Below are positions 6,242-57,603 of a DNA stretch of 64,000 nt, one piece after another (the stretch's first letter is position 1; each line of letters opens with the position of its first letter). The DNA comes from Octopus vulgaris (Eukaryota), in the NCBI GenBank assembly GCA_951406725.2, contig OX597825.1, positions 37,696,001 through 37,760,000 on the forward strand. Reading direction: 5' to 3'. The translations under genes were made by a program, and so were the position numbers. The notes under the pieces were generated by a model that saw nothing but the letters and a program-made list of their open reading frames with translations, ran no database searches and was not told the DNA's origin.

Positions 6242-6247
<6 letters not shown>

Positions 6248-6441
6248 TATAGAAGGAGCTTCTACAGGACTAGAACTGTTTCATTCAAATGAAATCTTCA
6301 GGAAGCTCAGATCTCCCTGAAGATTTCATTTCAATGAAACAGTTCTAGTCCTGTAAACTCCTTCTATAAAATAAATTAATTTACTCTGCTATGTATTGAG
6401 TACCTTATTAACTGTGGTTAACCCCGACTCAACCCGGGACC

Positions 6442-10207: not shown

Positions 10208-10217
10208 ATATATATAT

Positions 10218-10544
<327 letters not shown>

Positions 10545-10576
10545 TAGATAGATAGATACATATATATATACATATA

Positions 10577-10997
10577 GGCGCAGGAGTGGCTGTGTGGTAA
10601 GTAGCTTGCTAACCAACCACATGGTTCCGGGTTCAGTCCCACTGCGTGGCATCTTGGGCAAGTGTCTTCTGCTATAGCCCGGGCCGACCAATGCTTTGTG
10701 GGTGGATTTGGTAGACGGAAACTGAAAGAAGCCTGTCGTATATATGTATGTATATATATAAGTGTGTGTGTATATGTTTGTGTGTCTGTGTTTGTCCCCC
10801 TAGCATTGCTTGACAACCGATGCTGGTGTATTTACGTCCCCGTCACTTAGCGGTTCGGCAAAAGAGACCGATAGAATATGTACTGGGCTTACAAAGAATA
10901 AGTCCTGGGGTCGATTTGCTCGACTAAAACGCGGTGCTCCAGCATGGCCGCAGTCAAATGACTGAAACAAGTAAAAGAGTAAAAGAGTAAAAGAGTA
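10577..10997 (+). mobile_element. tRNA-derived SINE family A (CORE-like, octopus OR-type), full length
   Basis: A box tggctgtgtgg, B box ggttcagtccc, CORE-like cttgggcaagt, internal (TA/TG)n, and a (GTAAAAGA)n tail. Second copy at 15337-15721. Confidence 0.85.
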
Positions 10998-11242
10998 TAC
11001 ATACATATACATATATATATATATATAGATATATATGTGCATATATATATAGATATATATATGTGCATATATATATAGATATATATATATGCATATATAT
11101 ATATATATATTAATAAAAAGAATTCCAACCTTGTCTGATTTTCACGTTTTATTTACAATCTTATAATGATATATTATAAGATAATATATTATAATTGAAT
11201 AAAATAAAATGAAATAGTAGAATGTTAAATATTCATTCTGAT

Positions 11243-11287
11243 TGAACTAGTACTTTCATGCATTGAATTCTGCAATCTTCGGGTTCA
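11243..11287 (-). ncRNA. Minimal type I hammerhead motif in the PLE 3' region (U4C core variant)
   Basis: TGAAC-CCGAAGA-TTGCAGAATTCAATGCAT-GAAA-GTAC-TA-GTTCA: stem I TGAAC/GTTCA, stem II TGCA/TGCA, palindromic stem III AGTACT. Confidence 0.75.
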
Positions 11288-11781
11288 TGTAGTAGTGTTG
11301 ACAGTCATGCTTCACAATTTTTGACTGTAGCAAGATGAGTGATTCTGTGCTATAAATACAGCTGGGTAGGCTCCAGAGTGCTAGGTTTTGCAAACTGTAT
11401 TCTGACCAATCAGTGTGTAGTATCACTCAATTACTTAAGCTGATTGGTTGGTTGAGCTGATTGGTTTAGGCATCACGCTTTGTTGGACAGGTCAAGAGTC
11501 CTGTATCTTGACCCTGGCCGAAGCAGCAATTGTTGGCTTATTTTTAGAAATGTTGTAAATATCCTTTGTCAGAGATTTTTATATTTTTATATTTCAATTG
11601 TCATCATCATCATTGTCAGCACCTTAATTATTGTTGCTAGTGGTGATGGTGGTGGCAATAGAACTTTTAACCCTAAATAAGATAATTTTCCTGCTATCTT
11701 CGTCTTGATCACCTTTAGTATTGTTGTTGTTGTTAGTGGTCATGGTCGTAGCAGTGGAAGTAATACCTCTAAGTATTATTA

Positions 11782-13600
11782 TTATTGCTTATTTAGCTTG
11801 GGTTCGAATTTATCAATAAAATTCTTTTCTCTGATTTTCCTCTCGATTTCACTTGGGCTGTGTAATTTGTAGAATGGAAATATTATATATATTTTCCGAC
11901 CACATGTTGCTAGGTGGTTACTCAAAGGTATCTGACGGACCTCTGGGTCTCTAATCTGTTGCCGGTGTACACGTGAGCGTTCTAATAGTGCGTTTCCCGT
12001 CTGACCTACATATATTTCTTCACAATTTGGGCATTTGATGCAGTAAATTAAATTTCTGCTTTTGCAGTTCATATTCGCGTTTGTGAATATTTTCCCGGTT
12101 TTTGTGTTTATATATTGACCGGTATGTATGAATTGGCATGTGCCACATCGGCTATCATTGCATTTAGATACCGTGAATGTTTGGTCTTTGTTGCTGAGGT
12201 CAAATTTTGCCTTTGTTAGTAATGTTTTCAAGTTTTTAGGCTGTCTTTTACTAAGTACCATAGCTCGATCCTTGATTATGTCTTTTAATTCATTACTTTG
12301 GGCAATGATTGGTAGGTTTGCTTTGGCAATGTTGAAGATATTCTGGTGACATGGGTTGTGTGTCACTATGAATGGTATGACTTGTTCTTGTTTTCCTCTT
12401 CCTTGGGTTGTCCTAAGTTGTTGTATAGGTATTTTTATAGCCCGCTGTATGCCATTTTCTATAAGTAGAGATGGGTATTTTTGTTTGAGCAAAAATTCTC
12501 TTAGTTCTATTAGGCGTTTGTTCCTGATATTTGCATCTTCTACAATAGTACAAATTCTTCTGGCTAGGCAGTATGGGATGTTACGTTTTGTATGTGGTGG
12601 ATGGCACGACTTAAAATTTAGGTATTGATGTGTGTCTGTGTGTTTATAGTATATATCTGTGGTGATGGTGGTGTCTTTTTTAATTACCATTATATCCAGG
12701 AATGGTAATTTGGTACTACTCATCTCCTTTGTAAATTTGAGAGATGGGTGTAGGTTGTTCAGGAGGATATTGAACTCTTCCAGAGTATTTAGAGATTCTG
12801 TCCAGATTATGAAACAGTCGTCTAGGTATCTCTTCCATGCCTTTTCAATATACTTTCTAAATCCAGTGCCATAGTTTACCTCCACCTCTTGGTAGAGTTG
12901 TTCTTCTAAGTATCCCATTACAGAGTTGGCGTAAACGGGAGCAAACCTCGTTTCCATCGCCGTGCCTCTAATTTGGATGTAATTCTTTCCATTGAAGAAG
13001 AATGTGTTATTTTCTAGAATAAGTTTGACTGTGTCTAATATAAATGGCACTGTGAATCTGCTGGGAATCACTTCTCTATGTTTTTCTAACCAGTATTTAA
13101 TCGCCTTTATTCCTAAATCGTGTGGAATATTGGTGTAGAGGCTTACCACATCAAAACTTAGTAAAACTGAATTTGTTTCTGTTGTTTTGGGAAGATGGGA
13201 CAGGAAGTCGATGTCATCCCTGATGAAACTTGGTATGTAAGTACATAGTGGTTTCAAAACAATGTCAATAAAATTGCTTAGACGGTGTGTAGGGCATGCT
13301 GGACCAGCTATAATAGGTCTAAGTTTTAGGTCTTTTGGATGTAATAATTTTATGTACTCACTTTCTTGTTCTTTTACTGCCTGTTGAATGTTTTTTGATT
13401 TGTGTATTTTTGGTAAGCCGTAGAAGTTGCTGGGTTTTGGTTCAAAATTGGTGATGTAGTCTTTTTCATTATCCGTAAGTGAGTTGCGGTGTGTTGAAAT
13501 CAGGTTGTTGATCTTTTTTCATGATGTGGTGGTCTATATTTGCGGGTATTTCACAATAGAAGGTTGTATCCTTCAGTTGGTCTTCAACCAAATCCTTCAA
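11782..13600 (-). pseudogene. PLE reverse transcriptase-GIY-YIG endonuclease ORF (5'-truncated, one frameshift)
   Basis: The 491-aa ORF extends in frame upstream to about 13515 (FYGLPKIHK...LRPIIAG); a +1 A in an A run near 13514-13519 shifts to LKDLVEDQLKDTTFY up to 13600. Motifs: SFDVVSLYTNIP, GTAMET (canonical GTAMG), RYLDD, FLD, YYKHTDTHQYL, Cys linker CNDSRCGTC, LIYCIKCPNC-IYVGQT, R..H, NH. Confidence 0.93.
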
Positions 13601-13626
13601 GAAAGAAGCAACAAGAATGGATAGGT

Positions 13627-13717
13627 TTTTAGTACAATCGTTTCATACAAGGACAGGCTTTATTAAAAGTTGCAAAAATTACAGCATATAAACGTGTCCT
13701 GTACTCATCAGCTAAAA
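13627..13717 (-). ncRNA. Type I hammerhead ribozyme (inverted copy)
   Basis: Exact reverse complement of 14046-14136. Confidence 0.85.
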
Positions 13718-13859
13718 TACATGTGAGTTCTCTAGACATCCTATTGGTTGAGGCTATACTCATGAAGTAGATAATTAAGTAACATAAACAGATTTCCAAA
13801 GTTCATTAAAGTTCTTTAAAGATGATGTACAGTCTTATCACAGAATTTAAAAAAAATTC

Positions 13860-14279
13860 ATATGTGCACTATGGATTAGGTCACCTTCTCTGTGATGCTG
13901 TTAAAACTTTTTTAAAATTCTGTGATAAGACTGTACATCATCTTTAAAGAACTTTAATGAACTTTGGAAATCTGTTTATGTTACTTAATTATCTACTTCA
14001 TGAGTATAGCCTCAACCAATAGGATGTCTAGAGAACTCACATGTATTTTAGCTGATGAGTACAGGACACGTTTATATGCTGTAATTTTTGCAACTTTTAA
14101 TAAAGCCTGTCCTTGTATGAAACGATTGTACTAAAAACCTATCCATTCTTGTTGCTTCTTTCTCGCTTATAATCACCCCACATTATTGTATTGTTAAAAC
14201 AGTATAGTTTTTTTGGTGCATCTAAGTTAGGTATATTCAAGTAAATTCATTTAAATTAACTTGAATCTTTATTGCTTTT

Positions 14280-14281
<2 letters not shown>
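13860..14281 (+). mobile_element. 3' terminal segment of a second PLE family or non-autonomous HHR element
   Basis: Contains an HHR, continues past the IR to a T-rich end at (TA)n, and shows no visible similarity to the Neptune 3' region (11112-11780). Confidence 0.65.
14046..14136 (+). ncRNA. Type I hammerhead ribozyme with extended stem II
   Basis: TTTTAG-CTGATGA-GTACAGGACA...TGTCCTTGTAT-GAAA-CGATTG-TA-CTAAAA: 6-bp stem I, canonical core, about 10-bp stem II with a large loop, near-palindromic stem III ACGATTGT, GUA site. Confidence 0.88.
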
Positions 14282-14341
<60 letters not shown>

Positions 14342-29620: not shown

Positions 29621-30198
29621 TATATAAAGAGATAAATTATACAAAAATTGAATGAACGATATTTTGTATTTAAAAATACTACAATTGTTTCGAAATATTT
29701 CTAAATCCGTAGTATATTGGTGAGATGTGTAATTCTTATCATGCATCCAAAGTGTAAAATGCTCTTCCTCAGATTATTGTTTAAATAAGTCTTTTTGAGA
29801 TTGTAACGCCATTTCACTGAGGGTGAGAATGCATACCGAAAGTGATGTGTCACTTTCAACAGTTTACAGGCAAAACTAAACCCATAGATATAGTAACAGA
29901 CAAAATACAGTTTTTCTATTGTAACTGTATTTAGTCTGACACTATAAATATTGGTTTAGTTTTGCCTGTAAACTGTTGAAAATGTCATGACATTACTATA
30001 CTGTGTGAAATGTCGCTAGGTTCTAACAAAGGACTTATTTTAACAATAACCTAAGAAGGAGCATTTTACAACTTGGATGCATGATACTGATTACACTACA
30101 TTTCACCAGTTTACTACGGATGTAGAAATGTATCAAAACAAGAGGCATGAAGTTTAGAATGTCGTTCATCCCATTTTCTATCATCTATCTGCATATAT
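29621..30198. repeat. Long imperfect fold-back (about 290-bp arms), MITE/foldback-like
   Basis: For example ttcaacagtttacaggcaaaactaaacc vs ggtttagttttgcctgtaaactgttgaa; tcatgcatccaa vs ttggatgcatga; tccgtagta vs tactacgga. Centre near 29917. Confidence 0.85.
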
Positions 30199-30556
30199 AT
30201 TTATATATGGGAAAGGTTAAACTAATAATCCATTTGTAGATAGGAAATTTGTAATTTACATATAAATTAATTTAATAGCTAGAGGGCAATTTAGCTTTGA
30301 CAATGCATTTGACGTATATGTAAATGTAAGCTGTCTTTGAAACCTGCTATTCAATAGAGTTTGAGTATTTACTAGCGATCTGAAGCGTAATAGTGAAAGG
30401 AATATCATATATTGTATATACACTTATATGTGTGTGAGTGTATATATATATATTTATATATATATATGCATATATATGTATATATATATATTTATATATA
30501 TATATTTATATATATATATGCATATATATGTATATATATATATGTGTGTGTGTGTA

Positions 30557-30713: not shown

Positions 30714-31422
30714 CTGAGGAAAGCTATATAAAACATTTCCGTTAAGACAACTTTGAAGCTTCTTTGAGTGAAAAAGTTGACTGCATGTATTATGACTTCA
30801 CCAGCTCTCTATTAAATTGATAAGGAAATTCTATGCCATTAACTAAAGGGCTTTGAAATATCAGGAAATCAAAGACGTGGCAATCATAATAGTTATATTT
30901 TTCTTTTGTCTTCCAAAAAATATTTGATTTCTTGAAAGCCAAATGCAAAAGTAAAATTGAAATAAAGTAGTATCTTATCGAAACTGTCAAAGCTTGTCGT
31001 GGAATAGGCAAGAGATGTGATACTTGCATGACACAAAAATATCAAATGCTGATGTTACTTTATAATCTATATAAGTAAAGACAAAACTTAATGACTATTC
31101 GCAGACATAAATACAAAACATATCCTTAGGATTTAATAGTGTTACAGCGAGACTGACAACGTCTTATTAACGAACATATCAGAAAGAGAAACTCAATAAT
31201 TGCGTGACAAACAAGCCTGAGGTATGTTTTACGAAAAATATTTTATAAAAAAGTTGGCGGTTCTCAGTCGTGGACACCGAATAATAATAAATTTCTTTTT
31301 AATATATATGTATATAGATTCATACAAAAATGTTAATGTAGGTGAGTGTGCATGTGTGTATGTATGTGTGTGTTTGCATAAGCATGACAATATATATGTA
31401 CATATATATATATATGTATATA

Positions 31423-57244: not shown

Positions 57245-57510
57245 GATGAGATCGTTAATTAAAATATCGATCTTATCAGCATGGGAATAAAAACCTTCAA
57301 AGGTAATAATTATTATTAAAATTGTAATTTAGAGTATCCAACATATACCGTCGCGCTGGAAATAGCAGCCCAAAACCTGACTCTAAAACCAGATTAAATG
57401 TTCATACAGCACGTGGTGCTGTATGAACATTTAATGTTGTGGTTTTAGAGTCAGATTTCTGGCTGCTATTTCCAGCGTGACGGAATCTCTTAGATACCCT
57501 AAATTATAAT
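57241..57510. mobile_element. Fold-back insertion in (TA)n (probable PLE terminus)
   Basis: Arms about 57320-57412 and 57416-57510 around gcac-gtg-gtgc, a unique tail 57241-57320, and (TA)n on both sides. Confidence 0.65.

Positions 57511-57603
<93 letters not shown>

What the first reader, a model, noticed from the sequence alone, without database searches (positions are those of the whole stretch)
13600..14163. 249-bp inverted repeat placing an intact hammerhead on both strands
Seen: arms identical by eye, each holding a complete type I HHR with canonical CUGAUGA/GAAA core, GUA site, a long stem II with a large loop, and a near-palindromic stem III (ACGAUUGU) too short to close a monomer loop. 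Established: palindromic stem III in PLE HHRs supports dimeric cleavage. Inference: a transcript from either strand contains one sense HHR downstream of its full antisense copy. Read-through RNA would therefore form a 249-bp duplex that silences the ribozyme (and is an ADAR/Dicer substrate), whereas RNA starting in the spacer could self-cleave: a built-in conformational switch. Arm identity implies a recent origin or gene conversion.
Basis: partly seen in the sequence, partly recalled or inferred. Interest (0 to 1): 0.72.

Follow-up and report, generated by a model that had tools for sequence, protein, structure and literature searches.

The report
Head-to-head Penelope retrotransposon ends with hammerheads
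The inverted repeat and its two hammerhead motifs are real, but they are most likely two copies of the end of a Penelope-like jumping gene joined back to back during insertion, an arrangement already described, and probably not an evolved RNA switch.

Summary
Observation confirmed: arms 13600-13848 and 13915-14163 are identical over 249 nt, each with a type I hammerhead. Contigs of four public runs show both are 5'-truncated copies of one high-copy repeat end: the 'spacer' is native sequence of the right copy, which alone carries a ~28-nt tail. This is the head-to-head inverted pLTR of Penelope-like elements, in print with opposite-strand hammerhead pairs (PMC4209133), the one-sided tail (PMC3846280, PMC8557442) and siRNAs from such repeats (PMC3681739). 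The scan noted a similar hinge on other DNA (e1-9509687, not checked). Silencing in read-through RNA is predicted, but nothing shows an ON state or selection, so the 'switch' is likely a by-product. Two additions: the stem III palindrome varies in the family as A-U / G-U / G-C, as expected for a dimer-forming ribozyme (phase unknown). And the adjacent Neptune/Nematis-type RT-endonuclease ORF has its own, different, core-mutated hammerhead at 11287-11243, so the locus joins two families, by nested insertion or, less likely, a cross-family template jump. No listed contig bridges the fold, so an assembly artefact is not fully excluded.

The parts
13600..13853 (-). Left copy: 5'-truncated 3' end (pLTR-like) of repeat family B, without tail; perfect arm is 13600-13848
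   Evidence: family contigs cover it and continue past 13600 with the same letters as window 14164 onward (loose ends at 13600)
13627..13717 (-). Type I hammerhead of family B, core at 13711, predicted cleavage after 13633
   Evidence: mirror of the + copy
13849..13856 (.). Head-to-head junction in an A/T run, about 3 nt of possible microhomology
   Evidence: sequence; native upstream continuation leaves the window sequence at 13854 and 13855 (loose ends in X8, X7, X1, X18)
13854..14191 (+). Right copy of family B: native 'spacer' 13854-13914, perfect arm 13915-14163, tail of about 28 nt 14164-14191
   Evidence: X1 record 7 runs from spacer into arm as one native piece; X1 and X18 loose ends at 13600 match 14164-14191
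14046..14136 (+). Type I hammerhead of family B, CUGAUGA at 14052, GAAA at 14119, predicted cleavage after 14130
13598..13599 (-). Two-base join between the family B end and the truncated family A ORF (filler, or a CpG-decayed first two bases of B's continuation)
11782..13597 (-). 5'-truncated RT + GIY-YIG ORF of Penelope-like family A (Neptune/Nematis-type CX4CX2C linker, CCHH); frameshift in an A run at about 13514 and a private change at 12953 in RT motif B'
11210..11781 (-). 3' UTR of family A; family contigs leave the window sequence at 11208 and 11218
   Evidence: depth, X18 record 8 covers 11299-13597, loose ends
11243..11287 (-). Family A's own type I hammerhead (stem III word AGUACU, U-U at base of stem II); this copy has C at core position U4 (11281)
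   Evidence: MFE fold equals hammerhead fold; family contigs show U4 in 37%, 33%, 100% of depth in X8, X7, X18
10996..11110 (.). (TA)n tract left of the composite insertion
14282..14341 (.). (TA)n tract right of the composite insertion

Best explanation
The repeat is two 5'-truncated copies of one high-copy repeat end, each with a hammerhead motif, joined head to head, most likely made in one insertion of a Penelope-like retrotransposon and likely without a function of its own. Inferred mechanism: reverse transcription started at the element's outer 3' start site (giving the tail at 14164-14191), stopped at 13854, and the cDNA end likely folded back on an A/T run 55-60 nt earlier, primed on itself and recopied 249 nt, stopping short of the tail. 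I put fold-back self-priming at about 60% and priming of both target strands from two neighbouring start sites at about 40%. The hammerheads are passengers of the pLTR; any read-through RNA would be a long hairpin that masks them and would be a plausible siRNA or editing substrate, as a side effect. The neighbouring RT-endonuclease copy belongs to a second family (A) with its own hammerhead and most likely inserted separately into the AT-rich site at the left end of the hairpin.
For: Shown: spacer and tail are native family sequence and only one copy has the tail, as described for PLEs (PMC8557442 passages; PMC3846280 passages and Discussion, which report head-to-head inverted pLTRs, a 31-bp one-sided tail, and propose self-priming). 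Opposite-strand hammerhead pairs 100-700 bp apart are reported in PMC4209133. Both arms share two alleles rare in the family (13700: other letter in 96-100% of depth in 4 of 4 runs; 13744: 88-100% in 4 of 4), while at least 8 other arm sites are polymorphic, so the arms came from one template (two rarest sites alone about 0.004, independence assumed). Hammerhead anatomy fits PLE types: long stem II, small palindromic stem III (PMC4209133). PAc extends both target strands from two adjacent start sites and does not need hammerhead cleavage in vitro (PMC11167929). Penelope inverted copies yield siRNAs that match the inverted regions (PMC3681739 passages). Four other non-microsatellite fold-back repeats lie in the same 64 kb. 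Family A has a separate hammerhead and 3' end and no similarity to the arms (best blastn E 1.0).
Against: No ORF of family B was seen, so that B is the end of an autonomous PLE is inferred from anatomy, not shown. No contig listed bridges the fold or the B-A join. No target-site duplication was found (7-8-nt candidates in AT-rich DNA only). The B end meets A exactly at A's truncation point, same orientation, which a template jump predicts directly and a nested insertion only through shared target preference. The junction run (T3A8) does not match either priming model exactly (T4A6 expected). Cleavage, transcription and small RNAs were not tested.
Confidence: 0.8

Rival explanations
1. One insertion made the whole 3-kb locus: the RT copying family A RNA stalled at 13597, jumped to the 3' start site of a family B RNA, and the B part was then duplicated in inverted form. 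The hairpin is still a by-product, but it records a cross-family template jump. (Alternative for the A-B join only; compatible with the PLE reading of the hairpin.)
For: A's 5' truncation (13597) abuts B's natural short 3' end (13600; X8 loose ends go into TA-rich DNA about 8 nt further on), same orientation, 2 bases between. Both parts are young: A differs from an X18 contig at 6 letters and 1 gap in 2301 nt. The layout mimics the published pLTR + inverted pLTR + ORF unit.
Against: The B pair is complete by itself (two ends, one tail). Both ends sit near (TA)n, a shared target (PMC8557442). Secondary insertion of one Penelope into another, and 5' joins without target duplication, are reported (PMC3846280). 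An 8-nt match to B's continuation lies just beyond A's 3' end at 11180-11173, though most of it may be A's own tail.
Confidence: 0.22
2. The hairpin is an evolved conformational switch: read-through RNA silences the ribozyme, RNA started in the spacer self-cleaves.
For: Geometry and folding give a complete OFF state. The core is intact in both arms. A 2-bp stem III hammerhead can cleave weakly as a monomer (PMC7229834). A bidirectional pLTR promoter was suggested for a rotifer Penelope (PMC3846280).
Against: No ON state shown; stems I and III are not predicted to form in RNA from 13854; no same-strand partner with a matching stem III in 64 kb; PLE hammerheads cleave poorly without dimer or protein; arm identity needs no selection; the layout is routine for PLEs.
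Confidence: 0.03
3. The fold-back is an artefact of long-read sequencing or assembly, or polishing made the arms identical.
For: No listed contig bridges the fold (tables cut). The nearby frameshift and the junction mismatch are both in homopolymer runs, as long-read errors are. No whole genome was available to check.
Against: The mirrored part stops at a biological end (tail on one side only), the offset between copies is native pLTR sequence, and flanks are not mirrored; this matches published PLE insertions.
Confidence: 0.07
4. B is a native upstream module of element A, and this copy lost the part between by an internal deletion.
For: Same strand and adjacent; a 45%-identical relative has at least 1.2 kb upstream of its RT ORF (L003), so a far-upstream module would be missed.
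Against: The X18 contig runs 870 nt upstream of 13597 with no piece laid on the arm; B copies end in TA-rich flanks and have three different upstream sequences; A has its own hammerhead end.
Confidence: 0.08
5. B is a non-autonomous non-LTR retrozyme (short tandem hammerhead repeat making circRNA).
For: Type I hammerhead with 2-bp stem III and tetraloop, low GC, arms more abundant than the ORF in 3 of 3 runs that cover both; retrozymes derive from PLE pLTRs (bioRxiv 10.64898/2026.07.22.740005 passages).
Against: Not in tandem here; at least 478 nt upstream of the cleavage site without a second hammerhead (276 nt in window plus a 202-nt loose end), above the 150-450 bp range.
Confidence: 0.08

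Closest known systems
Head-to-head inverted pLTR insertions of EN+ Penelope-like elements (D. virilis Penelope; Adineta vaga Pen2/Pen2a; Naiad/Neptune Fig. 2 of PMC8557442)
   Same: Two 5'-truncated ends of about 250-340 nt joined head to head, unequal truncation, ~30-nt tail at one end only, AT-rich surroundings, hammerhead near each 3' end.
   Different: Here the direct copy is not followed by its own ORF and no third direct pLTR exists; the adjacent ORF is from another family with another hammerhead.
PLE hammerheads with small palindromic helix III (PMC4209133), including Schistosoma opposite-strand pairs
   Same: Type I, long helix II, palindromic helix III, two motifs a few hundred bases apart on opposite strands.
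   Different: 6-bp stem I, no extra base after A9, G-U instead of G10.1-C11.1, stem II extended by about 39 nt; not matched by Rfam hammerhead models.
Neptune/Nematis-type PLE ORFs of molluscs (closest named proteins from Mytilus, Pinctada, Saccostrea, 49-66% identical)
   Same: RT + C-terminal GIY-YIG, CX2-5CxxC linker, CCHH; DKG motif in relatives just upstream of the truncation.
   Different: This copy is 5'-truncated and frameshifted; no tree against reference clades was built, so Neptune versus Nematis is open.
Penelope inverted repeats as siRNA sources in transgenic D. melanogaster (PMC3681739)
   Same: Long perfect hairpin predicted on read-through.
   Different: Transcription and small RNAs untested here.

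Membership tests
Type I hammerhead ribozyme (arms, family B) | CUGANGA and GAAA core, NUH site | tested here: met
   CUGAUGA 14052, GAAA 14119, GUA ending 14130
Type I hammerhead ribozyme (arms, family B) | Stems I and II can form, stem I open | tested here: met
   Stem I 6 bp (pair probability about 0.45 in the 97-nt piece, 0.07 or less with more flank), stem II 10 bp (0.4-0.99)
Type I hammerhead ribozyme (arms, family B) | G10.1-C11.1 pair | tested here: not met
   G-U here; no variant at that site among the 40 rows shown of 48. A conserved, not obligatory, feature (PMC4209133).
Type I hammerhead ribozyme (arms, family B) | Covariation in stems | tested here: inconclusive
   Stem III central pair seen as G-U (window), A-U (24-53% in 4 of 4 runs), G-C (2% X8, 37% X18, 0 in X7 and X1); phase of the two changes not given; A15.1 to G in 32% of X18 depth goes against; no stem I variants listed
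Type I hammerhead ribozyme (arms, family B) | Match to Rfam hammerhead models | tested here: not met
   No hit
Type I hammerhead ribozyme (arms, family B) | Self-cleavage | not testable with these tools
   needs in vitro assay
PLE inverted pLTR insertion | Head-to-head pair of 5'-truncated 3' ends | tested here: met
   Native sequence continues upstream of 13854 and of the left arm's inner end in family contigs
PLE inverted pLTR insertion | 30-40-nt tail on one end only | tested here: met
   About 28 nt at 14164-14191, absent at 13600; exact end inferred from two loose ends
PLE inverted pLTR insertion | pLTR repeated downstream of the element's own ORF | tested here: not met
   No third arm copy in 64 kb; adjacent ORF ends in a different hammerhead; B's own ORF not seen
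PLE inverted pLTR insertion | Target-site duplication (optional, variable) | tested here: inconclusive
   Only 7-8-nt AT-rich candidates
EN+ PLE, Neptune/Nematis type (family A ORF) | RT followed by C-terminal GIY-YIG | tested here: met
   GIY-YIG E 1.5e-5, RVT_1 E 0.0013 below cut-off; 998 relatives at E<=1e-30 among 7990 scored
EN+ PLE, Neptune/Nematis type (family A ORF) | CX2-5CxxC linker and CCHH motif | tested here: met
   C453, C458, C461; C496, C499, H518, H535 invariant in 30 aligned sequences; definition from PMC8557442
EN+ PLE, Neptune/Nematis type (family A ORF) | Hammerhead near the 3' end | tested here: met
   11287-11243, core mutated in this copy; relative L003 has a minimal one 145 nt after its stop
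EN+ PLE, Neptune/Nematis type (family A ORF) | Placement in the clade by RT phylogeny | not tested
   no reference clade sequences in session
Non-LTR retrozyme | Tandem 150-450 bp units each with a hammerhead | tested here: not met
   inverted, not tandem; at least 478 nt upstream without a second motif
Non-LTR retrozyme | Abundant circRNA | not testable with these tools
   only contigs available

The most novel reading that the evidence does not exclude
The locus is a single-event chimera: a Penelope-like reverse transcriptase jumped from one family's RNA to the ribozyme-bearing end of another family's RNA, giving a truncated family A ORF a foreign pLTR pair. This would show cross-family template jumping in PLEs and a route by which hammerhead modules move between families.
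Probability: 0.22. Interest if true: 0.45.

Novelty: new member of a known kind. Interest (0 to 1): 0.2.

Why it matters
As it stands it is a clean, young example of a known PLE insertion shape, useful as a fossil of the unresolved PLE integration mechanism (shared rare alleles in both arms, one-sided tail, A/T microhomology at the fold). The family-level A-U / G-U / G-C series in the stem III palindrome would, if phased, be evidence of selection for dimeric hammerhead folding in a mollusc PLE. If the A-B join came from one event it would overturn the view that PLE ends are family-specific and explain hammerhead turnover among families. The proposed RNA switch would be new, but nothing here points to it.

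Tried and rejected
Rfam: no hammerhead hit in the window, in 11000-14300 at E<=5 or in 9 related loci at E<=1; miRNA-precursor hits only reflect long hairpins. No whole genome held. No RNA holder listed by record; 'RNA?' labels are guesses, so X1/X18 cover says nothing on expression of this locus; one X1 contig (13714-13827, 0 differences, depth 4.3) carries this locus's rare allele but may be DNA or a subfamily. PDB sequence search: 0 hits. Related loci: metagenomes 1, genomes 0 then 10, viral 0; none matched the arms by blastn. L011's 441-nt inverted repeat beside a distant PLE ORF looked analogous but has no hammerhead and TTAA-like ends, so I read it as a DNA-transposon insert and dropped it. 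My first hammerhead scans missed family A's motif because they demanded a perfect core and a paired stem II base; the chance test was faulty (it did not even count the real motif) and was redone; the descriptor was relaxed after I had seen the motif, so its chance figure (0.05 per simulated window, 100 windows) is generous; the family's U4 allele is the independent support. My first reading that the arms are the pLTR of the adjacent ORF was abandoned. The bacterial promoter scan is not applicable. A weak PLE-like hit at 30896-31039 (E 0.003; profile E 0.077) is not convincing. Earlier-findings look-ups by sequence and place gave nothing. Paper searches for cross-family template switching in PLEs and for octopus PLE hammerheads found no direct report; subscription papers and supplements were not seen, so this is not proof of absence.

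Full report
Observation. The repeat is as described. Arms 13600-13848 and 13915-14163 are exact reverse complements; with two mismatches they extend to 259 nt around a 46-nt loop. Each arm has a type I hammerhead motif: on the + strand stem I 14046-14051/14131-14136, CUGAUGA at 14052, a 10-bp stem II with one bulge, GAAA at 14119, stem III word ACGAUUGU, predicted cleavage after 14130. None of 150 simulated windows held so strict a motif. Rfam does not recognise it, probably because of the long stem II (inference). The base of stem II is G-U rather than G-C.

Setting. The window is AT-rich and full of microsatellites. The host is likely a mollusc, probably a cephalopod: named protein relatives are from bivalves, and the SINE-like pieces at about 10575-10960 resemble octopus SINEs from my recall; no call names the organism. 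Directly left of the repeat, on the minus strand, is a 578-codon RT + GIY-YIG frame with the CX4CX2C linker and CCHH motif of Neptune/Nematis-type Penelope-like elements. Homology continues in another frame to about 13597.

Family evidence (contigs of four coded runs laid on 11200-13914; depths are summed contig depths, not copy numbers; tables were cut). (a) One 3171-nt contig covers 11299-13597 with 6 differences and 1 gap and goes on with the native N-terminal coding sequence, so the ORF is 5'-truncated at 13597 and young; the extra base near 13514 is absent from 81-100% of depth in the 3 runs that cover it. (b) The 'spacer' is native sequence upstream of the right arm, so the right copy starts at 13854 and the left copy about 55-60 nt further in. 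(c) Family contigs continue past the arm end with the letters of window 14164-14191 (X1, X18), while 9 X8 contigs pass into TA-rich DNA after about 8 nt: two 3' ends, i.e. a tail of about 28 nt that only the right copy has. (d) Both arms share two alleles that are rare in the family (13700, 13744), so they come from one template. (e) The stem III palindrome occurs as ACAAUUGU (24-53% in 4 of 4 runs), ACGAUUGU (window) and ACGAUCGU (37% X18, 2% X8, none in X7, X1); self-duplexes are -8.4, -7.8 and -12.0 kcal/mol against -0.1 for the mismatch combination. Phase is not given, and 32% of X18 depth has G at A15.1, which would harm the core. (f) No listed contig bridges the fold or the arm-ORF join.

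A second family. A variant at 11281 led to a third hammerhead, at 11287-11243 on the minus strand in the ORF's 3' UTR: 5-bp stem I, 4-bp stem II over a U-U pair, palindromic stem III word AGUACU. Its minimum-energy fold is the hammerhead fold. This copy has C at core position 4; family contigs have U in 33-100% of depth (3 runs). Family contigs leave the window sequence 25-35 nt later (11218, 11208). So the ORF (family A) has its own end, unrelated to the arms (best blastn E 1.0). The arms are the end of another family (B), whose ORF I have not seen.

How it most likely arose. Shown: two truncated B ends, head to head, one tail, one template, an A/T run at the fold. Inferred: cDNA begun at the outer start site stopped at 13854, folded back on the A/T run and recopied itself (about 60%), or both target strands were primed from two neighbouring start sites and the two cDNAs joined by microhomology (about 40%); the junction cannot separate these. 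For the A-B join I favour a separate insertion of A at the AT-rich left end of the B hairpin (about 55-60%) over a cross-family template jump in one event (22%), B as a native upstream module of A (8%) or artefact (7%).

The switch. In the whole repeat all hammerhead stems have pair probability 0.0; RNA from 13854 forms stem II (0.97) but not stem I (0.001) or III (0.01). So the OFF state is predicted firmly and the ON state is not. The two B motifs are on opposite strands and cannot dimerise in cis; the A motif has another palindrome and a broken core. Weak monomer cleavage remains possible (PMC7229834). Identity of the arms is expected from youth alone (P 0.15-0.6). Four other fold-back repeats lie in the window, one decayed to 72%.

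Known work. [quoted passage not shown] PMC3846280 (passages and Discussion): head-to-head inverted pLTRs, one-sided 31-bp tail, self-priming proposed, secondary insertion of one Penelope into another. PMC4209133 (parts 1-2 of 4): dual hammerheads 100-700 bp apart on opposite strands, palindromic helix III, low in vitro activity. PMC11167929 (parts 1-2 of 4): both strands extended, two start sites define the tail, hammerhead protein-assisted and not needed for insertion in vitro. PMC3681739 (passages): siRNAs match Penelope inverted regions. PMC7229834 (passages and section 15) and bioRxiv 10.64898/2026.07.22.740005 (passages): retrozymes. No supplements were read; they may hold cephalopod PLE hammerheads or chimeric copies. 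Searches found no report of this family or of cross-family jumps in PLEs.

Verdict. Real, well explained, a new member of a known kind. Interest 0.2. The parts worth a specialist's look are the two-family join and the stem III variant series.

Noticed in passing
   Followed up: yes
window 6242-6374: About 60-bp-arm hairpin next to (TA)n with a CUGAAGA...GAAA pair of motifs on each arm; resembles another head-to-head PLE end pair, but stems I and III do not form by inspection.
   Followed up: partly
window 10211-10341, 57317-57514, 29621-30199: Further fold-back repeats (92%, 84%, 72% by blastn), the first two beside (TA)n; MITE-like or PLE ends, origin not determined.
   Followed up: no
window 11330-11470 (-): Family A's 3' UTR holds two CCAATCAGC repeats, an inverted CCAAT and a TATTTATA box about 80 nt upstream of its hammerhead: a candidate pLTR promoter (motif meaning recalled, untested).
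   Followed up: no
window 13766 and 13855 (loose ends): Family B's last 170-250 nt are shared by at least three different upstream sequences, so the hammerhead end may be shared or exchanged among subfamilies.
   Followed up: no
L003 1-1260 and 3660: A 45%-identical relative in a bacterial MAG contig (likely animal contamination) has long coding-like sequence upstream of the RT ORF and a minimal hammerhead 145 nt after the stop.
   Followed up: partly
L007-L009: Four tandem 3083-nt PLE units at over 99.5% identity on a contig filed under a Poribacteria MAG; PLE proteins are also filed under bacterial symbiont names: likely host contamination of MAGs.
   Followed up: no
window about 10575-10960: Two adjacent SINE-like repeats between (TA)n tracts (identity recalled, not tested).
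   Followed up: no
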